From assembly GCF_004010195.1 (NCBI RefSeq), contig NC_057710.1, positions 132,341,254 to 132,405,253 on the forward strand: a stretch of 64,000 nt of DNA. Reading direction: 5' to 3'. Of this stretch, positions 2,785 to 61,954 are shown piece by piece; position 1 is the stretch's first letter, and every line of letters begins with the position of its first letter. The notes beneath the pieces are model-generated. The model worked only from the letters and a program-made list of their open reading frames with translations, made no database searches and was not told where the DNA came from. The position numbers and the translations under genes were made by a program. Origin of the DNA: Chiloscyllium plagiosum (lineage: Eukaryota).

Positions 2785-2942
2785 GGGAACAGGAGAATCG
2801 ACGTTTCGGGCATAAGCCCTGAAGAAGGGCTTATGCCCGAAACGTCGATTCTTCTGTTCCCTGGATGCTGCCTGACCTGCTGCGCTTTTCCAGCAACACA
2901 TTTCCAGCTCTGATCTCCAGCATCTGCAGACCTCACTTTCTC
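2785..2942 (+). mobile_element. Short fold-back PLE terminal repeat (pLTR family A) with TSD
   Basis: 37-bp inverted arms 2784-2820/2826-2862; same sequence as 3' end of PLE at 6170-6270; ctattgaatttcta duplicated at 2771-2784 and 2943-2956. Confidence 0.85.
2819..2846 (+). ncRNA. Minimal type I hammerhead ribozyme core, family A
   Basis: CTGAAGA-A-GGGC(TTAT)GCCC-GAAA-CGTC: conserved core, 4-bp stem II, palindromic ACGT stem III, GUC site; stem I weak. Confidence 0.7.
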
Positions 2943-4880
2943 CTATTGAATTTCTAAATAGGCTCAAAATCAATCAGTTTGCTTATTGCCTTGCCCATTC
3001 AACACAATATTGGAAACATGTTAGGACAGTTGGCAGACAGAACATCATTTCTACAGGCTATCCCACAATCAAATACACCAGCGCGCAGAGGTAGGGGGTA
3101 AAATTCATTATTTGAATAGAAGATGGCAAACAGGAGAAAATGCTTGCAAGTAAAAGTTCTTTCTCAAGTCACAGGGAATAGAGAGTAGTGGGGGGATGTG
3201 GGTGCAAAGAAAGTAGATGAAGTCAAGGCTACGATGGTGAGAAAAGAAACTGCTGTCTTGTTAAGGGAGCACATTAGCTTTGATTTTACTGGGGAGTGGG
3301 AATTCTAAGCAAATAGGCAGCAAACACATCAAACTTAGTGATGGGGAAGGCCCATTGATCTGAAATGCAGGTCCTCATTCAAGTAAAGATCTTCAGAATC
3401 CCACCCAATACCCATTTCGATTGATTATTTACTCGTTTCCTAAACAGCTGCCAACAGGATGGACATATGAGATCATGTTTTAAACTCAAACAGTCATCAG
3501 TTTTAATGGGGAATATATTATTAATAAATTTAAGGCAAGTGTCAAATAATGTCTTACTGTTTATATCCATTAAATATGAAATAGAGAAACTCTGGGTTTA
3601 TTTCAAGAAACAATTACAGAAAGTTCTTGTTTTAAGTCTCCCATTTTAAAATGTTTTTTTCACTTTAAGTTTTTTTTTTAATGTTCTCTCTTCTCATTTA
3701 AGGTGTCACTTTAATATTCACTTTAATATCCCTTACTTTCTAGGTGCATCCCATGCCATTGTGACACACAGGTTGTCACACTATTGGTGAGTGCTCTGAG
3801 AATTGGTGCCATTGGGTCTGTGCCCTGCAGTTGAAGATCATTCAATTTTAAGCAATTTTCTCCGCAGGTACGAAAGTAATTATAATTCTAATCTTTGTTT
3901 TTTTTTTCAAGTCTTCTGCTGTTTGTACCTGTACTAGTAGAAGAACTGCTGTAGACCTAGTTTTCTGTGTTGTACTCTGTAGTACTTGTACAGGTATAAT
4001 GGTTGAGAAGTTTGTATTGCGCTGTAAGTTTCCTTAAAAACTTCTCTGCAAGCAAGACATCTTTTGAGTTTTACAAGTTATTTCAGCTGGCATTTACTGC
4101 AAAGAACATGTGTCACACAGGGCAAAAATCATCCTCAGGAACCTAATTCTAGCTTTAACATTGATTCCCATAGGAAATCGCACTTCACAAAGTCATTTTG
4201 CTAAAGTCGCTATTTTTAGGAATGCAGCCCTATCTTTACATGCAGCTGCCCAGTTCTGGAAATACCAGCTCATTTACATTGGTGCAGACTTTGAGACCAA
4301 TGGTGAAGCAAGAGCAACTGCCACTGGCAAAGTGTTTGTGTAGACTTGCACTAATCTGACATCTACATGCCACCCACAAGGACATCTTACATGTATGTAA
4401 AGGAACACAAAGGCTCCTCAATAATCAGATTGCTGAATTCTTACAAATGTGCAGTATCCAAACCAGGAAGAACAGAATAGAAGACATAAATTAAATTTAC
4501 ATAAACTACAGGAAGAAAAAATATGATAAATGCAATAAGATTAAAGGAGAAAAAAATAAACAGGCTGATCACTAAGTTTCTTCTGAGGGAATGAGACTCC
4601 ACATTTTTAAAGTTTATCTTTCAGAACCAGTGAAGTTTTTTGGCAATAATTATCACTTGTCACATTGTTAAAATCTCTGTTGTTGCTCAATACACAAGCC
4701 TTAACTTTTTTTTGCTTCTGTGCAAAATTAGTGGAGAGGTAGCCTGGCTCATGCTGCATTAATCCATTGCCTATTCTATCAGGGAATATTGCAACAGCAC
4801 ACCCTGTGCTGAAGTGGGATAACTCTAGAAACAATTTCCAGGTTTGCATATTTAACTACTTGTGTAAAAGTATCAAAAAA

Positions 4881-6270
4881 TGACCATGGACATCCAGTCC
4901 CTGTACACCTCCATCCCCCATCATGAAGGACTCAAAGCCCTCCGCTTCTTCCTTTCCTGCCGTACCAACCAGTACCCTTCCACTGACACCCTCCTTCGAC
5001 TGACTGAACTAGTCCTCACCCTCAACAACTTCTCTTTCCAATCCTCCCACTTCCTCCAAACCAAAGGAGTAGCCATGGGCACCCGCATGGGCCCCAGCTA
5101 TGCCTGCCTCTTCGTAGGATATGTGGAACAATCCATCTTCCGCAACTACACTGGCCCCACCCCCCACCATTTCCTCCGCTACATCGATGACTGTACCGGC
5201 GCCGCCTCGTGCTCCCACGAGGAAGTTGAACAGTTCATCCACTTCACCAACACCTTCAAATTCACCTGGATAGTCTCAGATTCCTCCCTCCCCTTCCTCA
5301 ACCTTTCTATTTCTATCTCAGGCGACCGAAACAACACGGACATCTACTACAAACCGACCGACTCCCACACCTACCTGGACTACACCTCCTCCCATCCTGC
5401 CCCCTGCAAAAACGCCATCCCATTCTCCCAATTCCTTCGACTCCACCACATCTGCTCCCAGGAGGACCAGTTCAAAATACGCACAACACAGACGGCCTCC
5501 TTCTTCAAGGACCGCAATTTCCCCCCCAACNNNNNNNNNNNNNNNNNNNNNNNNNNNNNNNNNNNNNNNNNNNNNNNNNNNNNNNNNNNNNNNNNNNNNN
5601 NNNNNNNNNNNNNNNNNNNNNNNNNNNNNNNNNNNNNNNNNNNNNNNNNNNNNNNNNNNNNNNNNNNNNNNNNNNNNNNNNNNNNNNNNNNNNNNNNNNN
5701 NNNNNNNNNNNNNNNNNNNNNNNNNNNNNNNNNNNNNNNNNNNNNNNNNNNNNNNNNNAGAGAACACCTCTGGGACATCCGGACCAACCAACCCAACCCA
5801 ACCACCCCGTGGCCCCACACTTCAACTCCTCCTCCCACTCCACCAAGGATATGCAGGTCCTTGGACTCCTTCATCACTAGACCATAGCAACATGACGGTT
5901 GGAGGAGGAGCGCCTAGGAACCCTCCAACCACAAGGGATGAACTCAGATTTCTCCAGTTTCCTCATTTCCCCTCCCCCCACCTTGTCTCAGTCAAATCCC
6001 TCAAACTCAGCACCGCCTTCCTAACCTGCAATCTTCTTCCTGACCTGTCCGGCCCCACCCCCACTCCTGCCTATCACCCTCATCTTGACCTTCCACCTAT
6101 CGCATTTCCAACGCCCCTCCCCCAAGTCCCTCCTCCCTACCTTTTATCTTAGGCTGCTGGACACACTTTCCTCATTCCTAAAGAAGGGCTCATGCCCGAA
6201 ACATCGATTCTCCTGCTCCTTGGATGCTGCCTGACCTGCTGCGCTTTTACAGCAACACATTTTCAGCTCT
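4881..6270 (+). mobile_element. Penelope-like element (Neptune-like), 5' truncated: RT, GIY-YIG C-terminal remnant, pLTR
   Basis: ORF 4880-5887 MDIQSLYTSIPH, KGVAMGTRMGPSYA, FLRYIDD, YYKPTDSHTYL; REHL after the gap; pLTR with decayed hammerhead at about 6178-6205. Confidence 0.92.
5531..5758. other. Assembly gap (228 N)
   Basis: Run of N. Confidence 1.
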
Positions 6271-6480
6271 GGTTCCTGTTTCTGCCATCCTTCAGGCAGT
6301 GAGTTCCAGACACCCTGCACCATCTGCGTGAAAAACATTTCACTCAAATTGCCTTGAAAACTCCTGCCCCTTACGTCAAATCCATGTCCCCATTGATGAT
6401 TGATCCCTCCACTATGGGGAATAGTTTCTGCCTCTCCAGCCTGTCTATGCCCCTCATTATTCTGTACGCCTTAATGAGAT
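6271..6480 (-). mobile_element. CR1 3' fragment, near-duplicate of 1118-1320
   Basis: Direct alignment by eye, few mismatches over about 200 bp. Confidence 0.8.
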
Positions 6481-7844: not shown

Positions 7845-8200
7845 GTTTCCTGAAGAAGGACTTATGCCTGAAACGTCGATTCTCCTGTTCCTTGGATGCT
7901 GCCTGACCTGCTGCGCTTTTCCAGCAACACATTTTCAGCTCGTATCTTCCTTCCCACCTATCAACTCCACCCTCCTCCCTGACCTATCACCTTCATCCCC
8001 ACCTCCATTCACCCATTGCACTCTTTGGTATCTTCTCTCACCCTCCTCTCTGACCTATCACCTCCATCCCCACCCCCATTCACCTATTGTACTCTATGCT
8101 ACTTTCTCCCCCCTGCTCCTCAGATGCTGCCTGACCTGCTGTGCATTTCCAGAATTCAGACTCGGGTTTCCAGCATCTGCAGTCCTCGTTTTTACTTTTT
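7845..8200 (+). mobile_element. Two stacked PLE pLTR fragments (family A)
   Basis: cctgaagaagg..gaaacgtcgattctcctg and gatgctgcctgacctgctg motifs shared with 6170-6270 and 34361-34670. Confidence 0.8.
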
Positions 8201-8367
8201 ACAAAGTTACAAATCACACAACACCAGGTTATATAGTCCAACAGATTTATTTGGAAGCACTAGCTTTTGGAGCTCCACAACCACCTGATGAAGCAGCCGC
8301 GCTCTGAAAGCTAGTGGTTCCAAATCAACCTGTTAGACTATAACCTGGTGTTGTGTGATTTTTAACA
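8201..8367. mobile_element. Fold-back PLE pLTR family B with hammerhead core at 8285-8313
   Basis: Inverted arms of about 65 bp; aaccac-CTGATGA...GAAAGCTA-gtggtt gives a 6-bp stem I; stem II decayed. Confidence 0.75.
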
Positions 8368-8799
8368 ATATTTTGTGGAGTGAAACTTCCCAAATTATTT
8401 TGGTGCATGGAAACCTGACATGATTACATTGATTTCTAATTTTTACTGGGGCACATCTTCTGGTGAGCAGAAGATCATCCAAAGAGCAGTCAGATTTGGA
8501 ATTTAGTTAGTGCTTAATCCAACATTGTGGTTTTACCAGCCAATGCAAAGGCGAGTGCAAAGCTGAGTGCAGCTGATTGACATCTGAAACTGGAAAACTT
8601 TGAAAAGTGAAACTATTTAGTTGTGGCCCTGACTAAGTGGGAGGCTTATAGTCACAGGCCTTCTGAGAGAATGCATTCCTTGCTTTGAAGGTTATTTTAA
8701 AATGCCTTTTTGAGAAGGCATTTCACTCTTCTTAGAGTTAATTTAATAAGTTACTTTATGCTATCGATTTAATTTGAAAACAATAAATATCTGAAGATA

Positions 8800-12091: not shown

Positions 12092-12598
12092 TAGATCAGA
12101 ATGATGCTGGAAAAGCACAGCAGGTCAGGCAGAATCCGAGAGCAGGAAAATCGATGTTTTGGGCAAAAGCCTTTCATCAGGAATTAAGGCAGGGAGCATC
12201 CAGGGTGGAGAGATAAATGAATGAGGAAACTGATGAAGTCCACATTGATGCCCTGGGGTTGAACTGCTCCGAGGCGGAAGATGAGGCATTCTTCCTCCAG
12301 GCATCGTGTGGTGAGGGAGCGGTGGTGGAGGAGGCCCAGGACCTGCATGTCCTCGGCAGTGTGGGAGGGGGGAGTTGAAATGTTGGGCCACGAGACTGTG
12401 GGGTTGATTGGTGCAGGTGTCCCGGAGATATTCCCTGAAGCGCTCTGTGAGAAAGCGTCCAGTCTCCCCAATATAGAGGAGACCACATCGGGAGCAACGG
12501 ATACAATAAATGACATTGGTGGATGTGCACATGAAACTTTGATGGATGTGGAAGACTCCTTTGGGGCCTTGGATGGTAGTGAGGGAGGAGGTGTGGGG
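12092..12598 (-). mobile_element. PLE GIY-YIG endonuclease fragment plus pLTR
   Basis: ORF 12125-12532 CTSTNVIYCIRCSRCGLLYIGETGR..ERFREYL; decayed hammerhead at about 12151-12180. Confidence 0.9.
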
Positions 12599-14190
12599 AG
12601 GAGCTATTTGGGGGTCTATAATACAATCCCAATAAGGTGATCATCCCTTTCATATTTCTCAGTTCCATCCAAATAACTTCCCTGGATGTATTTCCAGGAA
12701 TATCCTCCCTCAACATAGCTGGAATACTATCCTAATCCAAAAATGCCACTCCCCCTTCTCTCTTACTCCCTTTCTATCCTTCCTGTAGTATTTGTATCCT
12801 GGAACATTAAGCTGCTAGTCCTGCCCATCTCTGAGCCATGTTTCTGTAATGGCTATGATTTCCCTGCCAGTATATTAGTCCCTTCCAATTTAGGTGCAAT
12901 CCGTCCTTCTTGTACAGGTCACTTCTTCCCAAAAAGAGTTTCCAATGATCCAAAAATGTGAATCCTTCTCCCATACACCAGCTCCTCAGCCATGCATTCA
13001 TCTGCTCTATCCTCCTATTCCTGCCCTTACTCGCTCATAACACTAGGAGTAATCCAGATATTACTGCTCTTAAGGACTTCCTTTTTAAATTTCTGCCTAA
13101 CTCTCTGTAATCTCCCTTCAGAATCTCATCCTTTTCCCTTCCTATGTTGTTGGTTCCAATGTGGACAATGACCTCTTGCTGGCCCCTCTCACTTGTGAGA
13201 ACATTCTGCACCGTCTCTGAGACATCCTTGATCCTGGCACAAGGGAAGCAACACACCATTCTGCTTTTTCGCTGCTGGCCACCAAAACGTCTGTCTGTAC
13301 CTCTGACTACAGAATCCCCTAACACAATTGATCTCTTGGAAGCCGATGTACCCCTTGATGCATTAGAGCCAGTTTCAATACCAGAAACTTGGCTGTTCAT
13401 GCTACACTCCCCTGAGAATCCATCACCCCCTACATTTTCCAAAACAGCATACTTGTTTGAAATGGGTATATCCACAAAAGACTCCTGCACTAGCTGCCTA
13501 CCTCTCTTACCCTTCCTGGAATTAACCCATCTATGTAACTGTATCTGAGACTTTCCCTCTTCCTATAACTGCCATCCAACACTTACTGTTGCTGTTGCAA
13601 ATTCCTCATTGCTTCTATCTGTCTCTCCAACCGATTCACTCGATCTGATAAGATTCGCATCCAACAGCACTTATGGCAGATAAAATCCGCAGTAACCCTT
13701 GAACTCTCTTTAAACTCCCACATCTGACAAGAAGTACATATCACTGCAAAGGCCATTTTTGCTCCTTCACAATCGACACACCCTGAAAATAACACCGTCT
13801 TATTCCTCTACGAAATACTGCCCCAGATTAAATTAATAGTTTTGGCTCGTATTTTAAGCTTAATCAAGAGACATATCTCCAAAAACATATAATCAAGAAA
13901 GAACCCACTCTGCTCACTATTGCAGCCTTTCTGTTGGATACACTTAAAACAACGATTAACTTATTTGATTCTGTGCTGTGAACTTCACCCAAACAGGTTC
14001 CTCCAAGATTAGTTGTGAAATTCACTGTTTGTTAATTTTCCCAGATGAACTCTGATGTCCAGCGATGCATGAATTCAACAGCAAAACCAGTAACTGTGCA
14101 GGCTCTCTCTCTCTCCTGCACTGACCTCATCATGTGCTTCCTTTATCTATTCTTCTTCTTTTTAAAACTGCTGTTGTTTTGACTTTTTTT
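12599..14190 (-). mobile_element. CR1 5' half: 5' UTR, ORF1 (Cys-rich finger + SGNH esterase), start of APE endonuclease
   Basis: ICTSCQMWE..FICHKC; IVLGDSVVRG..VIVHIGTNNI (SGNH blocks); EVIWMELRN..GLYYRPPNS. Confidence 0.9.
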
Positions 14191-19616: not shown

Positions 19617-19639
19617 GGCACCCAGCATCAGGCACTTCA

Positions 19640-20139: not shown

Positions 20140-20240
20140 AAGAGAACAGAAATTGCTGTTAATCTCAGCAGGTCTGGAAGTACCTGTGGGAAGAAAACAG
20201 AACTAACATTTCGAGTTCTGTGACTCTTCATCAGAACTAA
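20140..20240 (-). mobile_element. PLE pLTR family C with hammerhead-like core
   Basis: Minus strand gtt-CTGATGA-AGAGTCACAGAACTC-GAAA-TGTT. Confidence 0.65.
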
Positions 20241-20249
20241 ATTTGATGG

Positions 20250-20878
20250 AATGCAGTTTTTGAGCAAAGTACAACACACACTCCCACACTCACACATGCA
20301 TTCTCTCACAGACTTAGACCCCTTTACACTCTCTCTCACACACACACACACATATACACTTTCTCTCACAGACACTCACAAACCCCCACCCCAGACACAC
20401 ACACACACAAAAACCCACATGTACACATATGTTTGTTGGGTGAATTTGTACTTGTAGAGTTACATTGTACTTTGATCAAAAACTTAATGAATCCATGCAA
20501 GACTCTGTTAACTCATTTTTTAGATTAGAATCTGTCTAAACATTATGGCACAGACAACAGAACACAGGGGGCTAATGCCTTCAACATCTTATCTGGGCTG
20601 ACACCAATTGTTACGATTAACCTGAGAATGTAACTTTTAAAAAAGGTTTTGTGATTTATATATGAAAGAAATGAAACTACCATGGTCATTCTAACAGATG
20701 AGAGACTTCACAAACAATCAAGGTATTTTTCAATGTATAACTTCAGTTACATCACACTGTAAACCTTTGCTATAAATTCTGTCTTACAATTGTGTACTCC
20801 ACAACCACCTGAAGAAGGAGCAGTGCTCCGAAAACTAGTGCTTCCAATTAAACCTGTTGGACTATAACCTGGTGTTTA
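20250..20878 (+). mobile_element. PLE 3' UTR with (CA)n tract plus pLTR family B
   Basis: Aligns with 52975-53647; cac-CTGAAGA-A-GGAGC(AGT)GCTCC-GAAA-ACTA-gtg at 20806-20840. Confidence 0.8.
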
Positions 20879-35725: not shown

Positions 35726-37726
35726 TTTACTGGATTTCTGGCTGTTTTCACAACACTGTCAGTAAGATTTTAAAATACTGATTGAAGTGGCCTAGCATCA
35801 GCTTGAATAAAGAATGACTTCTCTGGACTAAATTACTTGCTGAAATGCGAATGCTGCCCAGAATGTTAAATGGGTTGATTATTTTGCAAGATCTATTTAA
35901 TAAGTTAAACTTATTTATTTTTAAAACTGTTTAATCTCATTCCTGAAATTCTTGAACTTAAAATACATCAGCTCTTTCACTCATCGGATCAAAGTCTTGT
36001 GTTCATTTCATCCACGTGAAACATTTTTGAATGCATGTTTTTGTTCAATTGAGATAATTTAGATATTTGCCATGTTAATACTTTTATTAATTTCAAATAT
36101 GATAAACAGTCATTTAATTTGACATTTCAAAATCAAACTACATTCAATGTTCATTTTCACCAATTGTTGCAACTTATCTAAACAAAAGTCTAAACTTGAC
36201 TGCTAGTGTTGGGAAATCAAGAAGAAAAGATTGAAATTCAAAGCAATAAGACAATCCAAATGCACTTTTTATTATTTCTCTTGCAACAATCAAATATTTA
36301 TGAAGCACAAAATAATAACAACAACATTTATAATTGATAAATCCAAAAATAAGCATTCTGGTCAAAGATATTTATGCATTAACTGATGATTATTGGAACG
36401 TATAGCAGAAAGCTGCATTTCATATGAAATGTCAAGGCCACTTCATCCTGAAGCAACACTGATAAGCAATTTAATAAGTGTGCAACGTAAAGAAGACAAA
36501 TTTTACTGAAATTCAAATTCTTAATATGAAAGTAGTCTAGTGACAAGAGTATGAACATAGAAAGGCAGCACTCTTTTCAGTAGACAACAGTGTTCAGCGT
36601 CTAGTTGTGTTTTTGTTTCCCATGTGGACCACAGCTATTCATTTATCGAAGGTAACAGGCTGTAAGAAAATGAAAGCCCACATATCAAAGCTACAGAAAC
36701 AAAATAAACCAATGAACCAACAAATCCACAAGAGATTCTACAGCAGGAAAGGAGCAAGCATTCATGACCAAACACTCTCTGTGTAGGTTCCAACAACATG
36801 CACTTGTGGAAAGCTCAAAATACTTCATTAAAACAAAGTTACTATTTAAGAGTCCCATTCAAATTAACCTGGGCTACATTGGTACTGCTGAATGCTCCTT
36901 ACCAACTATTAAAATATGTTTCAACAAAAAAGACAAGGTTTTACTCATAGCTGAGGTTATCCAATGTTTTTCTTTCAAAGTATTACTGATCTTAATAAAA
37001 ATTAAAGCTAACTAACTTCTTTCAAAACTTTTCTCTTTGGTCCGTCAGGATGCACAGAAGTGATTTATTTAAGGAATGATAGAAGTACAATGGCCAGCAA
37101 CAGCACCATTAACAAACAAAAGTCTTCCACAAAGCAGTCACCGATCTACAAGAGGACACCAAATACCATAAGACATAATAACAGAGGGAGGCCATTTGAC
37201 CCATTAAGTCAAATTCACCACTTAATGAGATCGTATTGGATATGATAGTCCTCATTTTCACTTTTCTCAAAACCCTTGATTCTCTTAATGTTTAGAAAAA
37301 CGTCTACCTCAATTTTGAATATAGTTAATGACCCAGCCTTAGCAACCCTCTGTGGTAAAGAATTCCACAGATTTTCTGTCCTTTGAAAGAAAGAAGTCCT
37401 TCACATTTCCATCTTACATGAGAAACTCCTTATTCTGAGATAATGCCTTCTGATTCTCGACTGTCTCACAAGGAAAAACAGCCTCTACACAACCAAGTCC
37501 CTAAGAATCTTATATGTCTCAATAAGATCTCTCATTCTTTAAACTCCAATGAGTAGAGGGCCGATCTACTCAACCATTCCTCATAAGACAGCCCCTCCAT
37601 ACCTGATGAACCTTCTCCGGACTGCCTCCAATGCTAATATATTTTCCTTAGATAAGGAGTCCAGAACTTATACAGTATTCCAGCTGTGCTCTGACTAATG
37701 CCTTGGCATGACTTCCCGAATTATTA

Positions 37727-37947
37727 AGGGGAAAGTGAGGGCTGCAGATGCTGGAGATCAGAGCTGAAAATGTGTTGCTGGAAAAGCGCAGCAGGAAAGG
37801 CAGCATTCAAGGAGCAGGAGAATCGACGTTTCGGGCATGAGCCCTTCTTCAGGAATGAGGAAAGTGTGTCCAGCAGGCTAAGATAAAAGGTAGGGAGGAG
37901 GGACTTGGGGGAGGGGCGTTGGAAATGCGATAGGTGGAAGGAGGTCA
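37727..37947 (-). mobile_element. PLE pLTR family A
   Basis: Reverse complement of 6090-6270. Confidence 0.85.
37825..37852 (-). ncRNA. Minimal hammerhead ribozyme core, family A, intact
   Basis: CTGAAGA-A-GGGC(TCAT)GCCC-GAAA-CGTC on the minus strand. Confidence 0.7.
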
Positions 37948-38869: not shown

Positions 38870-39340
38870 ATTCTGAGTTTCCTATGACTTGTCATTTTAA
38901 TTCTAACCTTGCTCCCATTCTGACCTTTCTGTCCATGGCCTGATACAGTATTCTAATGAAGATCAATGCAAGCTCAAGTCACAGTACTTCATCTCTCAAC
39001 ATGGCGTTCTGTGACTTTCTCAATTCAACACTGAGTTCATCCACTTCTGTTCGATGTGTGTGCTTTTATTGACTTAAAGATCTTTATTTATCTCTTCATG
39101 TTGGGATAGACTGCAATACAATTGTTCACACTCATCTGGAGAGAACTTTATTTCTTCATTATATCAACTGCCATTTGGTTTTTGCATCTTAAATTGTTTA
39201 GTTTGTTAATCATTCTTGCTCTCCACCCTGTCACAAACATTCAATTTTCTTCTGCTGCCACCTCCCCTCTTTTAAGGCTTCAAAACTATAACTCTTCTAA
39301 CTTTTTTCCGTTGTTGTTAAATATAAAAATCATTGATGTG
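38870..39340 (+). mobile_element. Old PLE C-terminus and 3' UTR
   Basis: HFNS..SHSDLSVHGL..EDQCKL-like remnant typical of Neptune-like GIY-YIG tails. Confidence 0.55.
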
Positions 39341-39344
39341 GAGC

Positions 39345-40245
39345 ATTAAACAGAAAATAAAGAACTGCAGATGCTGGAAACCTGAAACCAAAACAGAAAA
39401 TCTTCGTGAAACTTGGTAGGTCTGGCAAGAAAGCAGACTTAATGTTTTGAGCCCAGTGACTCATCATCAGAACTGGTAGCAGCTAGGAAGGAGTGGTATT
39501 TCTGCTGAAGCAATTGGGGAGGATGTTGAGGGAGGCGAGCGGATAGGTGAAGATGCAGCCCAGAGAGAGATATGAAAGTCAGAATTGTTGGTATCGACCA
39601 AATAGAAGGGAAGCTGAAGAAGTGATAATGAAAGCTGAGAGAAGGAGAGAATGGGTTGGCTGTGCTGAAAGCAACCCGTGCTACCTCCAACACAATTATT
39701 ACTTTATGAAGTAACTTCATGTGTGGTACCTTATCAAACACCTTCTGAAAATCCAAATCCATCCACTACCTTGCCTTCACCTATCCTGCTTGTTACATTC
39801 TCAGAAACTTCTGATAAATCTGAAAGCAACCCACACGACCAGGGTGTGGGAGTTGATAAACAGCAGGAAAGTTTGGAATCAGGCTCTAAAGTTATTAAAC
39901 TCAATGCTGAATCCCAGAGGCTGTGGGGTCCCCAAGCGGAAAATGAGATGCTGTTTTTTGAGCTTGTGCTATGCCTTGCTGGAACACTGCTGGAGGCCTG
40001 AGACAGAACTGTTGGCCAGGTGGTGGATTGACATGGCAAGCATCTGGAAGTTCAGGATTGTATTTACAGTCAAGACGCCGGTTCTGCAAAGCGGTCTGCA
40101 CTTCACCTTCCCAGTGTCAAGGAGACCACACTATGAGCAGCAAATACATCAAACTTGGTTGAATGAAGTGCAGGTAAATCACTGCTTCACCTGAAAGGAA
40201 TTTCTGAGACCTGGCTAGCGAGGAGGGAGGGGGTAAATTGGCAGC
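39345..40245 (-). mobile_element. Old PLE: GIY-YIG relic (39833-40245) and family C pLTR (39345-39677)
   Basis: Minus strand FQVKQ*FTCTSFNQV*CICCS*CGLL; decayed CTGATGA core near 39465-39471. Confidence 0.7.
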
Positions 40246-40344: not shown

Positions 40345-40565
40345 GGGGGAATAATAAACCAGAGAAAGGCTGTCACCTCAGTAGCTCTAACAGCATCTCT
40401 GGAGAGAAAGTCAAGCTAAAATTTCATTTCCAGTGATCCTTCTTCAGAACAAGGGTCACTGAATGTGAAATGTTAACTCTGCTTTCTCTGTGCGGATGTT
40501 GCCAGGCCTGCTGAGTTTCTCAGGCAATTTCTGTTTTTTTTTGTTTCAGATTTCCAGCATTTGTT
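40345..40565. mobile_element. Fold-back PLE pLTR family C
   Basis: cagtgatccttcttcagaac / aagggtcactg inverted centre; tail gccaggcctgctgagtttctc...ttccagcat. Confidence 0.65.
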
Positions 40566-40934
40566 TTATTTTATTATAAAGGCCTGTTTTGTTGAGTTGA
40601 AAAATGCACAATGCCAGTACATGTCCCCTTTCTGCTGTAAACAAATCCTGTTCAACCCTTGAGCTGGCAATCAATCAGACCATGCATTCTGTCCATGACA
40701 GTGTATTTGTCATCCAGCAGGGACACCACCTTCATGAATTTATCTCAGATTTTCTCTTCTCTCCTCAAACATCCTTGATCCATAGGTGCTGCTGACATCA
40801 TTCTTAACTGCATCATTTCAGAGATTGTTGTGCACACTAATCAATCTGTGAATGCTGCATGCATTGTCTCTGACACAGTAGCCAAGCCCTGAATTACCCA
40901 TGTTAGGTCTCAGTCCATATTGAGCTCTACATGT

Positions 40935-43919: not shown

Positions 43920-44035
43920 GTTCCTGATGAAACGTCGACTCTCCTGCTCCTTGGATGCTGCCTGACCAGCTTTTCTTTTCCAATATCACACTTTTCGACT
44001 CCAACTCTCCAACATCTGTAGTCCTCACGTTCTCC
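43920..44035 (+). mobile_element. PLE pLTR family A with hammerhead stem II deleted
   Basis: cctgatgaaacgtcgactctcctgctcc... Confidence 0.75.
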
Positions 44036-44212
44036 ATATCTATAGGTGGGAACAAAGAACATACTCACCTGAATACAAGTCAGTACTGGGACTAACAAAA
44101 TATTCTTCTGACTATGCCAGATGCTTTTGTGGTTCAACTTGACAAACCACCAGTACACTTGTACAGCTTATGATTGTTCATCAACTGTACACAAGGGGAA
44201 ATTAGATCCCCT

Positions 44213-44310
44213 TCACCACAATCACCTGATGAAGCAGCTGCTCTCTGAAAGCTAGTGCTTCCAAATAAATCTGTTGGACTATAACCTGGTGTTGTGTGAT
44301 TTTTAACTTA
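44213..44310 (+). mobile_element. PLE pLTR family B
   Basis: cac-CTGATGA...GAAAGCTA-gtg followed by ttggactataacctggtgttgtgtg. Confidence 0.75.
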
Positions 44311-44849
44311 TTTCCACAGTACGCATAGCAGACATTACTCATATCCAACCAAGCCCCCCCCCCCCACCCCATTTTGCTGATTGTGCAGTCAATGCTGCAT
44401 TCCTTTTTCTATCACTCACTCCATGACCTGGCTGTTGGTCATCTGGTCTACTGTCCCTATTCTACTTACCTCATTTTCCTTTAATACTTCTAAGTGAAAC
44501 TGTGTATAGCCCTTTCAATTATAGCTTCAATCATTTCATCAGTTCAAGCCTGAATACTGTCCAAGTCTCACAATAAGGCCGCATACACTATTTCGGTTTG
44601 AGGAGCCATGGATGGTCCTGAACACTATGCAACCATCAGTGAGCATTCCCTTTTCCAATCTTGTGGTGAGGAGATGGCCATTGATGAATCAGCTAAAGAT
44701 GGTTTGGCTGTGACTTCTGCAGAGATACCCTGAAGCTGAGATGATGGCCTTCAGCCAGCACAACCTCTTACTATGAACTAAGTATGAGATCATTCAAGGG
44801 GACTATTCCTTAATTCCCACTGACTTCAATTTTGGTAATCCTCCTGGAC

Positions 44850-45375
44850 TGAGAGTGTGGTGTTGGAAAAGCACAGCAGGTCAGGCAGCATCCGAGGAGC
44901 AGGAGAATCGACGTTTCAGGCATAAGCCCTTCAACAGGAATGAGGCTTGTTCCTGATTTTTTAGATTCCCTACAGTGTGGAAACAGGCCACCCTGACCCT
45001 CCGAAGAGCAACCCAACCAGACCCATTCCCCTACATTTATCCCTGACGAATGCACTTAACACTATAGGCAATTTAGCATGGCCAATTCACCTAACCTGTA
45101 CATGTTTAGACTGTGGGAAGAAACCAGAGCACCTGGAGGAAACCCACGCAGACACGGGGAGAGTATGCAAACTCCACACAGATGGTTGCCCGAGGTGGGA
45201 ACTGAACCCGGGTCCCTGGCACTGTGAGGCGGCAGTGCTAACCACTGAGCCACCAAGGGCTTATGACCAAAACATCAATTCTCCTGCTCCTCAGATGCTG
45301 CCTGACCTGATGTGTTTTTCTAGCACCACACTCTCGACTCTGATCTCCAGTACCTGCAGTTCTCACTTTCTCCTT
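44850..45375. mobile_element. Composite: opposed family A pLTR arms enclosing an HE1 SINE (about 44960-45255, minus)
   Basis: atcctcctggac duplicated at 44838-44849 and 45376-45387. Confidence 0.8.
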
Positions 45376-46214
45376 ATCCTCCTGGACGCCGCACTCAATC
45401 AATTGCTGGCTTCATATCCAGGTCAATCACTTTCATTTCACTGTTAGAATCCAGCTGTTTTGTCCATACTGGAACCAAGGCTTAGGAGGACAGTGTGCTG
45501 GGGGATCCAGGGAGTAAAGGAATATGGAAGCAGGGTGGTCACACGAGAGTTTAGGATTATCAGTCAAGTGGATCATGGACAGAAAAATGGACTGCTTAAT
45601 CCAAAAAGGCTGACAGGACAAAAGAGAATTTTTGGATATAAAATGCAGCTAGATTCATTGTTTATATGTAAGCATATGTATTTAATTTATATTCATACCA
45701 ATGTAATATGTATACATATTGATGTGGAAGGGATTTTTTTTTTCTTTCCAGAATTCTGCATCCTATGGGATTGTTAGAACAAGAGTGGGCCTCTTTGTGT
45801 TGAACTGAATTTAAATCACATAAAAATTAAAGCTAAATCTAATACAATAGCTCATGGCTGTTACTGCTTGAAAGACCAGTCAGGTGCCTAGAAGTTTAAT
45901 CCACATTGCTATGTCTGGGGAAAGTTGTTAATTTTCAGTTAAGCAACCTATTTTTCTTCGTAGTAAATGCATTATGCAGGTAATTTAACAAAATTGCATT
46001 TCCAATAGGGGACTGCATCTTCTGGGGTACATAATCAAAATTTTTACAAATACCTCAACAATTTTCTTGTCCATTAATTAGGTCTGTCAACAGTCTCATA
46101 CAGCTTGCTTGACAAAACTACGAATCTTCACAAAGATATCAAGTGGATGTGAATGCCTTACTCCACGCCACTAAACTGAATTAGATGCCAATAAAAAGAT
46201 CATCAACTTTTTCT

Positions 46215-46530
46215 TTAAAGCAAAGAAATGCAGATTCTGGAAATCTGAAACAAAAAATACAAATTGCTGGAGAAACTCAGCAGGTCTGGCAGCACCTGTG
46301 GAGAAAAAGCAGAGTTAATGTTTTGCATCCAGTGACCCTTCTTCAGAACAAGACCAGATATTGCTGGAGAAACTCAGCAGGTCTGGCAACATCTGTGGAC
46401 AGAAAACAGTCAACCTTTTAGGTCCAGAGCCCTTTCTTCAGAATCCTGATTTTAAATAACAGTAACTCTGTTTTGTCTCTACAGATGCTGCCAGACCTGC
46501 CGAGTTTCACCAGCACTTTACATTTTGGAT
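46215..46530. mobile_element. PLE pLTR family C: tandem dimer (minus) plus inverted arm
   Basis: ttgctggagaaactcagcaggtctggca at about 46264 and 46361; each unit ends in ttcttcagaa (reverse complement of ttCTGAAGAA). Confidence 0.75.
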
Positions 46531-51879: not shown

Positions 51880-54130
51880 ATGAAATGTCAAAAGTGTATT
51901 GAGTAGACCTGTGACAAGTGTTGTACTGCTCTTCTACTGCAGTGTGAAGGCTTTTTACAGGCATGAGTAGCCCTGTCTTGAATAAAGTTAAAAATCACAC
52001 AACACCAAGTTGTAGCCCAACAGGTTTATTTAGAAGCACTAGTTTTCAGAGAACTGCTTCTTCATCAGGATCATTGGACACAGAATTTATACCAAAGGAT
52101 TACAGTGTCATGCAACCTGAAATGATATATTTAATAAACCTAGATTCCTGTTATATCTTTCATCTTTTAGAATGGGTTGTAGGTTTTAGTTCATTAATAG
52201 GTAAATCCCAAAACTTCTTTTAAGTCATTCTTGAGACAACTGAAGGTTTTATATAAAGGAAGGTGACATCTCAGCTCAGACAATGCATTAAAGGTGTGAG
52301 GTTAGAATCTGTCTGTACCCCAAACTTGAGTCAGACTGGTTCTATTTCCAAAGTAGGAATTTATAAAATATTACATGCATTGACTGCCTGCAGATTGTGC
52401 GTTTTGACAAAATAGAATGTATCTGCAAATATAATTCTGCAAAAGCAAATTCACCCATTGACTTATATGTGTGTGTGCATGCATGAGAGAGTGAGTGTGG
52501 ATGTATGTATGTGAGTGTGAGTCCGCATGAGAGAGTGGTGTGTTTGCGTGTTTGCATGCTTGATAAAGTGCATGTGTGAGTGTGATAGAGTGTAAGCCTG
52601 TGAGAGAGTGTGTGCGTGGATGTGAGTATAGGGGTTATATGTATGTGTGTATGAGAGAGCGAGCGTGTGAATGAGAGAGGGTCTGCGTGAGTGTGTGTGT
52701 ATGTAAGAGTGTGTGTGTGTGAGAGAGTGTATAGTGAAGTGGGGTCACCTGCAGTGTGACATGAACCTAAGGTCCCGATTGAGGCCATCCTCATTGGTTC
52801 TGAACTTGGCTATCAGCCTCTGCTCAACCACTCTGCATTATTGTGTATCCCGAAGTCCACCTTGGAGGATCGTCACCTGAAGATCCGAGGCCAGACCACT
52901 GAAGTGTTCCCCGACTGGGAGGAAACACCCCTGTCTGGCGATTGTTGCGTGGTGTCCATTCATTCATTGCCAACATACAACCCCCACACTGACTCCCACA
53001 CACACACCCTCTCACAGGCTTATATTCCATCACACTCACACACACATTTTACCAAGCATGCACACTCAAATGCACACATTCACATGCACAAATTCACACT
53101 CTCTCTCTCTTTCTTTCACATGCATTCACACACACATAAAAGTTTATGGATGAATTTGCTTTTGCAGAATTGTAATTGCAGATACATTCTATTTTGCTCA
53201 AAAAGCGTACAATCTGCAGGCAGTCAATCCATGTGACATTTTGTAAATTTCTACTTTGGAAATAGAACCAGGCTGACTCAAGACTGGGTACTGACAGGCT
53301 CTAATCTCACATCTTTAATGCATTGTCTGAGCTGAGATGTCACCTTTTTATAAAACCTTAAGTTATCTTAGTTCTGGGATGCACATATTAATGAAGCAAA
53401 ACCTGCAACCTGTGCTAAAAGATGAAAGGCTTATCAGCGATCTAGGTTTGTTCAATATATCATTTCAGTTACATGACACTGTAATTTTTTGCTGTAAATT
53501 TTGTCTTATTATACCATTCCACCATTCTACCTGATAAAGGAGCAGCGCTCTGAAAGCTTGTGCTTCCAAATAAACATGTTGGACTAGAACCTGGTGTTGT
53601 GTGATTTTTAACTTTGTCCACCCCACTCCAACACTGGCTCCTCCAATCCTGTCTTGAATAGGTAGCCCTTATCCCTGAGAATCTATATCTGAAAGAGCAA
53701 GCGGTGGTCTGGAACAATGCTGGTACCTGAGGATACTGGAGTAGGCAGGAATGATACCTTGATTTTGGTGGCTGCAGCCCATTTGAACAATGAGGGAGTG
53801 GAAAGCTGTGGGAGTCCTGGCCACATACTTGCAATTACCTTGCATTAGGAGTATCCTGTGATGAACCTCCCCACCAGTGTAGGCTACATTATCACCAGTC
53901 CTGTGGATCACCCCTTGATGGGTTGCATCCTGTGAGAGTTCACAAATATCTTTGCTTGCTCCCTACAAAGGTTAGGAGGAATTGAAGTGTGATGCAGAGA
54001 TCAGTGACTGGCTTGCGGGAGAACCTTGGATATCGGGAACACATTCAGCTGTTCATGAAAGGATAGGCTCTTTTCACACAGAAAGTTGTTGACATGCCTC
54101 ACTGTATCCTTCTGCACTCCATGGCTGGTA
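51880..54130 (-). pseudogene. PIF/Harbinger DDE transposase relic (HARBI1-like), split by a PLE
   Basis: Minus strand FHSLIVQMGCSH, QYPQVPALFQ, DKGYL-FKT continuing past the PLE as GLLMPVKSLHTAVEEQYNTCHRST. Confidence 0.65.
51985..53647. mobile_element. PLE family B with inverted structure: minus copy (GIY-YIG tail, 3' UTR, pLTR) and plus copy (3' UTR, pLTR)
   Basis: Minus strand MNGHHATIARQ..PVGEHFSG..ILQGGLRD..EQRLIAKF; arms of about 500 bp; 13-bp TSD cctgtcttgaata at 51972-51984 and 53648-53660. Confidence 0.88.
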
Positions 54131-57385: not shown

Positions 57386-57439
57386 ATCTGTGCAGTCAAC
57401 ACTGCATCCCTTCACGACCTCTCCTAACCCTAACCCTAA

Positions 57440-57564
57440 GGAGAAAGTGAGGACTGCAGATGCTGGAGATCAGAGCTGAAAATGTGTTGCTGGAAAAGCG
57501 CAGCAGGTCAGGCAGCATCCAAGGAGCAGGAGAATCAACGTTTCGGGCATGAGCCCTTCGGGCA
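57440..57564 (-). mobile_element. PLE pLTR family A inserted into telomeric (TAACCC)n repeats
   Basis: taaccctaaccctaa at 57425-57439 and 57565-57579. Confidence 0.85.
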
Positions 57565-58794
57565 TAACCCTAACCCTAACCCTAACTAACCTCTCATACC
57601 ACTCAATGCACTACAGTCCCAACAGTCAGCCAGCAACAATTTCGAGCATTCACCACTCAACTCAGATACTCTGTCTCACCCTCATTCATATTCCAATGAT
57701 ACCAACTTCCCAGCCAGCTCCAAGTCCTCCCACGTACCTCCAGCTACTCAGCAATGGCAGATACATAAATCAAACACAATCTGGCACAACCAATGTCATT
57801 CTGCCTCCTTCCTACAGGACAAAGTGGTACACTATAGAAAGAAGTAAAACAGAATACCACAGAAGCGCCTTAATTTCCTAAACCCAATGAGGAGAGTGTG
57901 CTTCATATCATGGGGTTGGCAATGGTAGTGTATATAATGGTGCATAATGGTGCATTTGGCATTACCAGAGCGTTGAGAATGATAGCATGTCCCTCCCTTT
58001 ATGCACGTTTAGACTCAGTCTCATCCATTATCTGTGTGAGAGGCAAGCTGCAGATAGCATGGCCATAAACTCTTTCTTTACATCCACAAATTCCAAACTC
58101 TTCTGATTTGATGCTTTCAGATAGCCAGGAACTGCTAACAGTCCAGCCACAGCAGCCTCACGAGGAAGGGAGAAGGTAATTCCACACCATTGAGGAAGAA
58201 GCTCTGTCACTTAATATGACACCTACTACCAAAACCCCAGGCGATGGCACTGGGCAAACTTTTAAAGCTGGCATGGAGTTAGGTGGTGAGTCACTTGACC
58301 TGAGCAGTATCCCAGAGGAGTTTTTGTATCAGTTCCCTGGAGAAATGTTTCTTTTCAGAGAATTCTTTTCTCAGGGATGAGGAGCTCAGGTAGGTGACTC
58401 ATAGGAGAACAATGATGAATGTGTACTCTGAGATGCTTGGCGAATTGACAGTCCTGCTGGAAATTCAAGAAGCACTGAGGGATTCTGCAACATCATAACA
58501 TGGAGTTTTGGTGAATAACATGGAGCCCATCCTTTTCCAGTATGTACGTGGTAGTCAACTCCATAATGATATTGTCACAGCCGCCTGTGATGCAGCATCT
58601 GATAGCCAATGTCTCAGTTTCCATTCCACCACAGACAAAAGCCTGCCAATGTCCCTGAGCTACAATAGAAGACCAGTTGGAGATCATCAGTTCCACTTAT
58701 GCCACTTTGAACAGCATTTGTCATAATTCTGTTAATTTATTTTCATGAAGTGTTGGTACAGGACGTCAAGGACAAATAATCTGATTTTTTTAAA

Positions 58795-59150
58795 ATTGAT
58801 TTATTATTGTCACATACTCCTTAGTACAGTGAACAGTTTTATTTTGCATGCAGCACAGGCAGGATCATAAAATACTTGGTGCATTAGGATAATAAGACAG
58901 AGTGAAGAATAGAATGTTACAGTTATAGAGAAGATACACAATGAGCGAGATCAACATTTAAATTTAAAATTTGAGAGATCCATTCAGAAATCTGACAACA
59001 GCATGGAAGAAGCTGTTCTTGAATCTGTAGGAATGTGTGTTTAAGCTTTTGTATCTTCTGCCCAATGGAAGAGGTTGGAAGAGATTTTAACTGGGATGGG
59101 AGGGGTCTTTGATGATGTTGGCTGTCTTCCTGAGGCAGCAAGAAGTGAAC
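58795..59150 (-). mobile_element. Rex1/Babar-type LINE 3' end
   Basis: Minus strand CLRKTANIIKDPSHPS*NLFQPLPLGRRYKSL..RFKNSFF and tail ttcactgtac..gtgacaataat. Confidence 0.8.
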
Positions 59151-60029
59151 CTGGACTTGTTGTGATCGTGCATCCATGTCTCCATATCTGTCGGCAGCAG
59201 ATAGGGTTTTATTAGCTGCTCAATCCGAGGAACAGCATCGCTGCACAGTTTATAGCATCACTCACTTCCCCCACCCTTCCACACCCAATAGGAAATTCCA
59301 CAACTTCAGAGTTTGACTCCATGTTGTCAGTTCTCTATTTTCCTTATGTTCCACCCCTCAGCACCAGCACACCTAACCACCCACCCCCCCCACACACACA
59401 AACACACACCCAGTAGGAAAGGTACAGTCTGCTGAGGCAGATCAGAAGCTGCAAGAACACTGCAACACAGATGTTTCCTCAGAAGCATTTGTGAAAATTA
59501 GCAACTGATAAAGACTGAAGTTAATAGGGCTTTTAGAGCAAGGGCAACCCCTCCAAGGGATTAGTTTTGATGTAAGTGTATTAGGGCATTGACCTCTTGG
59601 TTTCAATGGCACACCAGCCTACCATGGAATGGGAGAACAGGCATTGAGCTGATGACTTCTACACAAGGTAGAAAAGGTGTTCAAATGCCAATGAAGACTA
59701 CAATATTACCACCAACTGGGATTTCAACTATTTCAATTAGCTGACACCTCTGTGGAGTAGGCTGTCTGGCTGATTTACCAACAACACCTGGGAAATTTTC
59801 CAGTGGTAAGAATGTGCCATGGAGTTGATGTAATGTTGCTTCCACCTAACCTCTCATCCCCAAACCCCCAGAATGCCAAAGGTTATGGGGGGACAGACAG
59901 GGAAATGAACTACAATCATATCAGTGACAAGCTCAGTGGTTGACAGATTAGACTCAATGAGCCATGAGCTGAAAATGTGTTGCTGGAAAAGCACAGCAGG
60001 TCAGGCAGCATCCAAGGAGCAGGAGAATC

Positions 60030-60057
60030 AACGTTTCGGGCATAAGCCCTTCTTCAG
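60030..60057 (-). ncRNA. Minimal hammerhead core (GUU site)
   Basis: CTGAAGA-A-GGGC(TTAT)GCCC-GAAA-CGTT. Confidence 0.65.
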
Positions 60058-60062
60058 GAATC

Positions 60063-60090
60063 CTGAAGAAGGGCTTATGCCCGAAACGTC
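60063..60090 (+). ncRNA. Minimal hammerhead core (GUC site)
   Basis: CTGAAGA-A-GGGC(TTAT)GCCC-GAAA-CGTC. Confidence 0.7.
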
Positions 60091-61954
60091 AATTCTCCTG
60101 TTCCTTGGATGCTGCCTGACCTGCTGCGCTTTTCCAGCACCACATTTTCAGCTCTGATCTCCAGCATCTGCAGTCCTCACTTTCTCCTCAATGCACCATG
60201 AGGCCAGTTCCTGCTCATGTTTCTTATGGTCATATGACCTAATCTCCATAGGTCAAGGAAGGTCCAGCCTATTTAATCTGTCCATCTCTTCGGAACACAC
60301 CGCACAACTTACTGTGCCTCTTGTTTTTGATCAGATTTTGCAGTTCAGGTTTTGAAGGACATTGAGCTGGTCACCACTAATGGGAGTAGTAACGTTATTG
60401 CAATTTCCACAGTGCTCATGCTTGGGCCAAAATCCAGAAGTTGTTGTATGCACGAATGAGCTCTGGGTAGCATCTGTTGATAGTCTCTTTGTTAAGTAGC
60501 ACAGATATGTAGTTGAACACTAACTTTTATGTTGTTTTGTTTAAATTTGGTAATAATAGCACAGCGGGACTTATACTCTTCAGAACGGCACAAGCTGGAG
60601 TACATATGAACTTTCAGAGGTAAGTGCAGACCTTTTCAATGTTGGTCTTTTTTTTACTGGCCGATATAATCTTTTAGTGTGGCTTATCAGATTTCTTAAA
60701 AGAATATAATTTATTTCACTTTTTTACAGAACTTAAGTAACTTTTTTTTAAATCTATAAATATATATGACTTATTCTATTAACATTTATCTGACTTGAGA
60801 TTTCAATGCAAAGGACTCTTTCACAAGATGAAAGTGACTTTAAGAAATGTTTAAAAATATCCAACTTAACGTTTATCTGACTTCCTTCAAGTTTCAAGAT
60901 AAAAGACTCTTTAGCAAACTTAAAATGACTGTTTAAAGATGTTTTAAAATTCTATCTTTATGAATCATACATTGTAAGACATCTTTGAAATAACAGAGAC
61001 TGTATACTGCAATACATTGAAGATCAAGCCTATGACAAAGAAACTTGTCTGTTCCATTCTGTAGAGCAATTTTATCTGATTTCTGTCATATATAATAGTT
61101 CAAAAAAGAGCCAGTGTCATTCCTGTGAGCCAATGAGGAAGCACTGTTACAAGGTGTTGCTCTACAGGAAGGTTTGACCCAACAGCCCACAGATAGGACT
61201 GTGTTAGAATTGGGTGAAAGGGAGGGTCCCCACATGAATATCACTGGGCCACGCACTGTGGACCACCCAAACAGTCTCAGCTCCATTTGCCAAAATGACT
61301 AGACAACAGCTGGTAATTGATGTATTTGGACATGAGAAGTGACAACACTTCCCTTTCTCCCATAGAATATCAAACCAAAGAATAATGTTGATGTAAAGTC
61401 AAATAAATTTGCTTCAACTTCAAAGACAGATTGCCAGACTTTTGAGGTAATTATTAATGAGGAACATCAACTCTGTTTATTGAAAGACCTTTATGCCATT
61501 TGTGTAAATTAGCATTTTTATAGTACTCTGTAGACCATTGTGATGTCAAAATGGTTAATTTTCATAAAGTTATTTTGACTATTTCAGAATGACTACAGAC
61601 TGAGGTGTAAATGTAACACACTTAAGGTGCAAGAAACCAAGCGCTGGATCTTATGTTAATTTGGCTAAGTCCAAGTTGTGGGTGTGACTTTCGGACGGAT
61701 GTTTCCACTGAAGTACTTAATAAGTTTGCTTGCTATATCTTACCAAACTCACTTCATTAACTACCTATTCCAACTCCAGTAGTCTCCCTCACATCTGGTT
61801 CCAGCCTCATCTTACACTGCTATGTTTGTAGAACAACTCAAAGCTCAATGGATATCCCAGCATCCCTTGGTTTTTCAAAACCCATTGTGTCCTAGGACAA
61901 GCACTGTCAGCTGGAGCTTCCCTGCTTGGTTCCTGACATTTGACCTGGACATTG

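What the first reader, a model, noticed from the sequence alone, without database searches (positions are those of the whole stretch)
2785..60186. About 20 minimal hammerhead ribozyme cores from three unrelated PLE terminal-repeat families
Seen: three distinct short repeats keep the hammerhead core CUGANGA / stem II / GAAA / UH while stem sequences differ. Family A has GGGC-loop-GCCC, ACGU and a GUC site (intact at 2819+, 37825-, 60030-, 60063+; decayed at about 6178, 7850, 12151, 34460, 43925, 44910, 57540). Family B has cac/gtg stem I, GGAGC-GCUCC, AGCU and a CUA site (8285+, 20809+, 27611-, 27714+, 44226+, 52040-, 53530+). Family C has guu/aac stem I and a GUU site (about 20205, 39440, 40430, 46316, 46410, all decayed). 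Established: Penelope-like elements carry minimal type I hammerheads whose palindromic 4-nt stem III favours cleavage as dimers. Inference: this genome carries roughly one such core per 3 kb here, most in short non-coding units separated from any RT ORF. That suggests a retrozyme-like non-autonomous RNA system.
Basis: partly seen in the sequence, partly recalled or inferred. Interest (0 to 1): 0.7.

Follow-up and report, generated by a model that had tools for sequence, protein, structure and literature searches.

The report
Penelope retrotransposon hammerhead stubs in shark
The tiny self-cutting-RNA motifs scattered through this DNA are real but are the end pieces of three abundant Penelope-type jumping genes, a known kind of debris; most copies begin just before the motif rather than at its predicted cut site, so they were likely copied from uncut RNA and are probably not an independent ribozyme-driven RNA system.

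Summary
All 23 listed sites are copies of minimal type-I hammerhead motifs, about one per 2.8 kb here and one per 4.1 kb in a 1.16 Mb genome sample. Stems covary between families. Most are decayed; only 37852- matches its family majority throughout.

The retrozyme reading is not supported. Each family is the 3' pseudo-LTR / 5' UTR module of an RT + GIY-YIG Penelope-like element, and in this window at least one copy per family still carries an ORF remnant. Families A and C are related. There are no head-to-tail arrays, and short copies share variants with ORF-bearing copies.

Copy 5' ends pile up at -12..+3 relative to the catalytic core, at about ten times the upstream rate, not at the cleavage site (7 of 304). 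3' ends fall at two sites about 35 nt apart. Likely mechanism: internal priming near the RNA start and run-off on uncut RNA, often from both target strands (head-to-head units). The transcription start and cleavage are untested.

Hammerheads in Penelope ends are published (PMC4209133). This scan noted the same stubs and pile-up before, in this genome and others.

The parts
2786..2944 (+). Family A fold-back stub: direct arm with core C3 at 2819, short inverted arm 2786-2820, 14-bp target duplication on both sides
4868..6272 (+). Family A PLE remnant: RT (4868-5527), assembly gap, GIY-YIG end (5759-5991), 3' UTR, hammerhead C3 6178 (G5>A)
7846..7944 (+). Family A solo stub starting at -3; stem II broken
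8197..8373 (+). Family B head-to-head stub; core C3 8285, stem II decayed; inverted arm 8197-8276
12100..12640 (-). Family A (older subfamily) GIY-YIG remnant followed by a decayed hammerhead (C3 about 12180)
20140..20239 (-). Family C stub, core C3 20234, nearly intact, GUU site
20240..20876 (+). Family B 5'-truncated copy with 3' UTR, core C3 20809 (15.2 G>A)
27515..27801 (.). Family B head-to-head pair, cores 27639- and 27714+
   Evidence: the MIR4374 hit is this hairpin, below gathering score
34374..34680 (-). Family A older-subfamily copy, core C3 34487 (G12>A), 5' end about -190
37720..37947 (-). Family A copy, core C3 37852, the only window copy matching the family majority throughout; predicted cleavage after 37825
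39340..40211 (-). Family C copy, core C3 39470 (G12>A), with GIY-YIG remnant 40211-39888 upstream
40369..40575 (.). Family C head-to-head pair joined at the cores
43925..44038 (+). Family A stub with stem II deleted
44216..44313 (+). Family B solo stub starting at about -10; stem II decayed
44845..44945 (-). Family A stub, core C3 44937 (A6>U)
45255..45376 (+).
46220..46530 (.). Family C cluster: two minus-strand copies (cores near 46345 and 46441) and an inverted partial arm
51975..52970 (-). Family B copy, core C3 52068, with the C-terminus of its GIY-YIG ORF about 680-900 nt upstream
53120..53650 (+). Family B 5'-truncated copy, core C3 53531 (G8>A)
57437..57575 (-). Family A stub lacking CUGA, inserted in a short telomere-type repeat with a 17-bp duplication
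59964..60192 (.). Family A head-to-head pair, cores 60057- and 60063+; one arm ends near +90, the other near +130

Best explanation
The motifs are the hammerhead-bearing end modules of three very abundant RT + GIY-YIG Penelope-like elements, left as short, decaying insertions that likely arise when the element's enzyme primes about 90 or 125 nt into its uncut RNA and runs off the RNA's predicted start just before the hammerhead. Shown: link to ORFs in all three families; the module is also the 5' UTR in family B (start codon 119-122 nt after C3); two 3' end points; 5' ends piled at -12..+3; frequent head-to-head arms with target duplications; decay of the catalytic core no slower than its neighbours. 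Inferred from PMC11167929 (lizard PLE in vitro): both target strands are nicked and extended, priming is internal at two sites, and hammerhead cleavage is not needed. Inferred here, untested: the pile-up marks the transcription start (Initiator-like letters at -4 in A and C); head-to-head units come from both target strands copying the same short segment. The hammerhead is likely functional only in the source elements, probably as a dimer or with protein help.
For: A core follows the RT on the same strand in 10 of 10 RT loci (one is the window's own) and 9 of 10 long-ORF loci; the RT query had 67,291 first-look candidates. B core follows the GIY-YIG end in 16 of 20 loci (one is the query's own) and 8 of 8 long loci; 21,572 candidates. 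C: RT and GIY-YIG upstream in L122, GIY-YIG upstream of window 39470. Per-base 5'-end rate, pooled over 304 copies: 0.065 at -12..+3, 0.003-0.006 upstream, 0.010 at +16..+30; 82 of 131 A and 22 of 33 B copies reaching +3 stop there. Contig loose ends of an independent run pile at window 37855-37857 (-3 to -5) and at 37763 and 37727-37731. 3' ends bimodal: A 74 at +80..99 and 97 at +120..139 of 189. Inverted arm next to the 5' end: A 62 of 157, B 22 of 36, C 14 of 55. Target duplications of 14 and 17 bp in 2 of 13 units examined, with a 7-bp exact match in a third. Haplotypes of 87 of 94 short A copies occur in long or ORF copies; identity medians 0.87 vs 0.88, p 0.47. G12 changed in 25 of 137 copies, CpG sites overall 245 of 1096.
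Against: No transcription start was measured: one single-cell poly(A) run showed no pile-up of read ends anywhere, and the library suits this poorly. Of 15 B copies that span core and start codon, 10 continue upstream past the proposed start (-42 to -365) and only 5 begin at -11..+3, so read-through, tandem or circular RNA must also be copied. The Initiator match is weak evidence: short motif, A and C related, B fits only partly. For C only 10 old references were available, so its peak may be partly an alignment effect. No full A or C element with its upstream module was found, so the 5' UTR position is shown for B only. No clear target duplication in 10 of 13 window units. In D. virilis an intron end, not the start, abuts helix I (PMC4209133, PMC2377424).
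Confidence: 0.72

Rival explanations
1. Same PLE origin, but the 5' pile-up comes from the enzyme or from DNA repair, not from the RNA start: the RT stalls or folds back after the hammerhead, or the GIY-YIG nuclease trims new DNA at an ATT just before the core.
For: Over half of the A and B copies at the peak carry an adjacent inverted arm (45 of 82, 15 of 22). Family A has ATT at -4..-2, and the lizard enzyme cut most often at an ATT near its ORF-pLTR junction (PMC11167929). Self-priming was proposed for head-to-head palindromes (PMC3846280).
Against: A structural stall would be expected at the 3' foot of the stems (+20 to +32), where the rate is low. B and C lack ATT there yet peak at the same place. 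The drop upstream of -12 is abrupt.
Confidence: 0.15
2. Solo stubs are SINE-like non-autonomous elements: they keep an internal promoter and the priming sites, are transcribed on their own and are re-copied by the PLE protein.
For: About 90% of sampled copies have no ORF remnant upstream (A 16 of 129 have one, B 4 of 34). Units have preferred ends. Penelope has an internal promoter in the pLTR (PMC2377424), and non-autonomous pLTR elements exist in Chlamydomonas (PMC8557442).
Against: No short-only haplotype with 3 or more copies; same age as long copies. RNA reads come from both orientations, and 93-96% run on into unlike flanks, as read-through would give. In the lizard PLE the minimal template reached 172 nt into the ORF, past the priming sites (PMC11167929), which stubs lack.
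Confidence: 0.08
3. One reading: a retrozyme-like system of short units that self-cleave as dimers, circularise and reinsert.
For: The motif is a real, covarying minimal hammerhead. Animal retrozymes are reported to derive from PLE ends, also in one cartilaginous fish (bioRxiv 10.64898/2026.07.22.740005).
Against: No head-to-tail arrays. Units include the whole uncut core and do not start at C17. Retrozymes as described carry canonical type-I ribozymes in 150-450 bp tandems (PMC7229834). Head-to-head pairs put the two cores on opposite strands, so one transcript holds only one of them.
Confidence: 0.04

Closest known systems
Minimal type-I hammerheads of metazoan PLEs (Cervera and De la Pena 2014, PMC4209133)
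   Same: Same core, extra base after A9, G10.1-C11.1 pair, palindromic 15.2-16.2, several families per genome, mostly single dispersed motifs attributed to truncated PLEs, pairs on opposite strands.
   Different: Density: about 0.8 million core-covering and about 0.26 million strict-descriptor copies by extrapolation, against about 4,000 in coelacanth and 9,000 in Xenopus tropicalis with a different descriptor. The dominant A subfamily has a U-U mismatch in stem I.
EN+ PLE insertion units of the Neptune/Nematis type (PMC8557442, PMC3846280)
   Same: RT + C-terminal GIY-YIG, CX4CxxC linker, 5' truncation, adjacent inverted copy, optional 30-40 bp tail, target duplications.
   Different: Stubs of 95-135 bp dominate and their 5' ends pile at the 5' edge of the hammerhead; I found no such pile-up described in the passages read or in searches.
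Poseidon element of the green anole, in vitro (Frangieh et al. 2024, PMC11167929)
   Same: Two internal priming sites that define a tail, both strands extended, hammerhead just upstream, uncut RNA used as template, no RNA-seq ends at the cut site.
   Different: There the ORF starts inside stem II; in family B it starts about 121 nt after C3. Different clade by the linker motif.
Animal non-LTR retrozymes (PMC7229834; bioRxiv 10.64898/2026.07.22.740005)
   Same: Short non-coding units with a type-I hammerhead, related to PLE ends.
   Different: No tandem arrays, minimal rather than canonical ribozyme, ends not set by cleavage, direct link to ORFs.

Membership tests
Minimal type-I PLE hammerhead | Core CUGANGA / GAAA / UH with one extra base after A9 and a G10.1-C11.1 pair | tested here: met
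   Family majorities; 68 of 137 ungapped A copies keep all 11 core letters
Minimal type-I PLE hammerhead | Stems I and II with compensatory changes | tested here: met
   31 of 36 cells Watson-Crick over 4 families, 0 of 20,000 shuffles; within C stem II pair 2 A-U 17 / G-C 13; within D stem I pair 3 U-A 11 / G-C 7 / C-G 3. Stem II letters were part of the search patterns, stem I letters were not; families are related.
Minimal type-I PLE hammerhead | Palindromic 4-nt stem III | tested here: met
   65 of 84 strict family hits; the rest mostly CpG changes
Minimal type-I PLE hammerhead | Self-cleavage, as a dimer or protein-assisted | not testable with these tools
   Needs an in vitro assay; read laying showed no ends at C17 in one unsuitable library
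EN+ Penelope-like element | Single ORF with RT and C-terminal GIY-YIG upstream of the hammerhead module | tested here: met
   A: L078, RVT_1 E 6e-8, GIY-YIG E 4e-4 just under cut-off. B: RVT_1 E 4e-6 under cut-off in L168, GIY-YIG read by motif only, no Pfam hit in L163/L164. C: tblastn to the A protein.
EN+ Penelope-like element | 5' truncation, adjacent inverted copy, 30-40 bp optional tail | tested here: met
EN+ Penelope-like element | Partial tandem: pLTR module directly upstream of the ORF start | tested here: inconclusive
   Met for B (15 of 30 junction loci retain the core); not found for A or C
Neptune/Nematis clade | CX2-5CxxC linker before GIY-YIG and two Cys between GIY and YIG | tested here: met
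   Seen in A and B translations; definition from PMC8557442 passages
Neptune/Nematis clade | RT phylogeny with reference elements | not tested
   No reference PLE proteins were fetched
Non-LTR retrozyme | Head-to-tail tandem units each with a hammerhead | tested here: not met
   20 of 285 copies have one same-strand neighbour within 600 bp, no array above two
Non-LTR retrozyme | Canonical type-I ribozyme with a helix III | tested here: not met
   All four families are minimal; no Rfam hammerhead hit
Non-LTR retrozyme | Unit boundaries at the cleavage site | tested here: not met
   7 of 304 5' ends within 2 nt of it
Non-LTR retrozyme | Abundant monomeric linear and circular RNA | not testable with these tools
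   Only poly(A) single-cell raw reads and contigs were available

The most novel reading that the evidence does not exclude
The hammerhead sits a few bases after the element's transcription start and acts as a dimer-triggered decapping switch: only uncut RNA is copied, and read-through transcripts of the several hundred thousand still-intact stubs could pair through the 4-nt palindrome with PLE mRNAs and cut them in trans, a copy-number brake built from the element's own debris.
Probability: 0.07. Interest if true: 0.7.

Novelty: new member of a known kind. Interest (0 to 1): 0.3.

Why it matters
The hammerheads and the stub architecture are known. What this genome adds is statistics: with on the order of 0.8 million copies (extrapolated), the ends of insertions map the likely priming sites and the likely RNA start of three Penelope-like elements and show that the uncut hammerhead is what gets copied. 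This agrees in vivo with the one in vitro study and gives exact positions for testing what PLE hammerheads are for, which is still open. It is not a new RNA system.

Tried and rejected
Rfam 15 at E<=10: no hammerhead; the miRNA hits are fold-back insertions below gathering score. Monomer folding of 9 cores: no support beyond stem II, z -0.1 to -2.5, the two strongest being copies altered by inversion. MAFFT cross-family alignment put family B one column out of register, so pairs were counted by motif-anchored script instead. The 'tandem' class (19 copies) was mostly false, from weak similarity of the upstream region to the tail; superseded. The peak at -30 was an artefact of inverted arms in references; removed. 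Candidate full-length A elements L082 and L072 proved to be separate insertions. A splice acceptor 13-25 nt before the core was considered: no 5'-end peak there and no splice joints in raw RNA reads. No RNA holder listed on record; run X22 laid 0 reads. Lunse et al. 2017 is not held; known only through the review PMC6765202. Searches for shark PLE hammerheads in print found nothing relevant. No supplements were read; those of PMC4209133 and of the 2026 preprint may list cartilaginous-fish motifs.
Full report
Setting. The window is G000:C1:132341254-132405253 of a 3.56 Gb assembly. That it is a shark is inference from its repeats and from earlier notes of the scan. Positions are given relative to C3 of the hammerhead core (0); predicted cleavage lies at +28 (A), +29 (B), +30 (C).

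1. Observation. All 23 listed sites are copies of three repeats with the hammerhead core. Profiles find 23 core-covering copies in the window and none on reversed sequence. A strict descriptor finds 7, against 0.04 in simulated windows. In 122 stretches of 10 kb (1.162 Mb of called bases; 20 flank the window, 102 placed at round positions on large contigs, so not a random draw) there are 285 core-covering copies: A 162, B 36, C 58 and a fourth family D 29, absent from the window. The strict descriptor gives 90 hits there, 84 assigned to families by rule. Extrapolated: about 0.8 million and about 0.26 million copies. Family-majority stems pair in 33 of 36 cells, 31 Watson-Crick, with different pairs in different families; 0 of 20,000 shuffles reach that. 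Stem II letters were in the search patterns, stem I letters were free. The stem III palindrome holds in 65 of 84 hits. Most window copies are damaged, including three of the four called intact. Rfam has no matching model.

2. What they are. Family A cores follow an RT on the same strand in 10 of 10 RT loci and 9 of 10 long-ORF loci; L078 has RVT_1 and GIY-YIG in one frame. Upstream of B copies, past a CA microsatellite, lies the C-terminus of a second ORF; 16 of 20 such loci and 8 of 8 long loci have a B core downstream. C copies have RT and GIY-YIG remnants upstream, 38-42% identical to the A protein in L122. In the window 6178+, 12180-, 39470- and 52068- still carry ORF remnants. About 10% of sampled copies do (A 16 of 129, B 4 of 34, C 1 of 49, D 2 of 24). 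A and C share their 3' tail, so they are not unrelated. A and B proteins have the CX4CxxC linker that marks Neptune/Nematis-type PLEs (PMC8557442 passages); no tree was made. In B the same module is the 5' UTR: the start codon lies 119-122 nt after C3 in all 15 of 30 junction loci that retain the core.

3. Ends. 3' ends fall at two places about 35 nt apart (A: 74 at +80..99, 97 at +120..139 of 189; B: 18 and 26 of 49). 5' ends were mapped for 304 of 310 sampled copies. The per-base stopping rate is 0.065 at -12..+3 (133 ends), 0.015 at +4..+15, 0.010 at +16..+30 and 0.003-0.006 upstream of -12. Only 7 ends lie within 2 nt of the cleavage site. The C peak rests on 10 old references and is weaker evidence. 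Contigs of an independent run show loose ends at the same places. An inverted arm adjoins the 5' end in 62 of 157 A, 22 of 36 B and 14 of 55 C copies. Head-to-tail neighbours are rare and never more than two (20 of 285). Two of 13 window units have clear target duplications of 14 and 17 bp, a third a 7-bp exact match.

4. Selection and independence. G12 lies in a CpG and is changed in 25 of 137 A copies, like CpG sites overall (245 of 1096). Non-CpG core positions are not better kept than the tail (130 of 1370, inflated by truncation, against 234 of 4110). The covariation therefore reflects selection on source elements, not on the stubs (inference). Short A copies share haplotypes with long or ORF copies (87 of 94), have no private haplotype with 3 or more copies and are of like age. 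In one single-cell poly(A) run (about 2% read) about 1,900 reads per stretch came from both orientations, 93-96% ran on into unlike flanks, and no place had many read ends. This fits read-through but cannot test starts or cleavage.

5. Mechanism. Established for a lizard PLE in vitro (PMC11167929, parts 1-2 of 4 read): both target strands are cut and extended, priming is internal at two sites that define the tail, and hammerhead mutants insert normally. Inferred here: a transcript that starts just before the hammerhead carries a priming site about 90-130 nt from its own start; priming there runs off the RNA end and gives a 95-135 bp stub with the whole uncut core; priming from both target strands gives head-to-head units. 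A and C have Initiator-like letters with the A at -4; B fits only partly (the Initiator consensus is recalled, not from a call). Against: 10 of 15 B junction copies continue upstream of the proposed start, so longer templates are also used; and in D. virilis the start is well upstream, with an intron ending at helix I (PMC2377424 passages; PMC4209133). Stalling, self-priming or nuclease trimming remain rivals.

6. Known and new. Minimal hammerheads in PLE ends and their dispersal as truncated singles were described in PMC4209133 (parts 1-2 of 4 read); dimer cleavage is summarised in PMC6765202 (passages; the primary paper was not held). Inverted copies and tails: PMC8557442 and PMC3846280 (passages). 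Retrozymes: PMC7229834 (passages) and bioRxiv 10.64898/2026.07.22.740005 (parts 1-3 of 5); their defining tandem layout is not met. PMC6155905: passages only. No supplements were read. Searches showed no paper on shark PLE hammerheads or on the 5' pile-up. The scan itself had noted both in this and other genomes; I had measured the pile-up before that call, and those notes are not independent support.

Verdict. Real motifs, known kind, ordinary origin; the retrozyme reading is not supported. The end statistics are a useful handle on PLE mechanism. Interest 0.3.

Noticed in passing
window 57420-57590: A family A stub sits in a short telomere-type (TTAGGG) repeat with a 17-bp duplication; it was the only copy with such repeats nearby among all sampled and window copies.
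   Followed up: partly
L024:9376-9421, L047:9729-9774, L217:9723-9768, L072:1299-1344: A fourth hammerhead family (D) with a longer stem II and strong within-family covariation in stem I; weak GIY-YIG remnants upstream; it shows no 5' pile-up at the core, on only 3 references.
   Followed up: partly
family A, e.g. window 37819-37858: The dominant A subfamily has a U-U mismatch at the third pair of stem I (118 of 189 copies) while another subfamily has a perfect 4-bp stem; both spread.
   Followed up: partly
window 33690-34960: A degenerate minisatellite of about 21 bp period, interrupted by the family A copy at 34374-34680.
   Followed up: no
window 19549-19622 (-): Weak C/D-box snoRNA-like match (snoZ17 and sn2343, below gathering score, E 0.3-6).
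   Followed up: no
window 63108-63667 (+): Remnant of a further, divergent PLE RT, 32-49% identical to the family A protein.
   Followed up: no
window 272-589, 11433-11894, 13035-13562, 22272-22945: LINE-type (probably CR1) RT and ORF1 fragments; weak RVT_1 and OSK matches.
   Followed up: no
upstream of cores, e.g. window 6135-6153: A pyrimidine tract ending in TAG lies 13-25 nt before the core in A, C and one B subfamily, like a splice acceptor; no spliced reads or copies were seen.
   Followed up: partly
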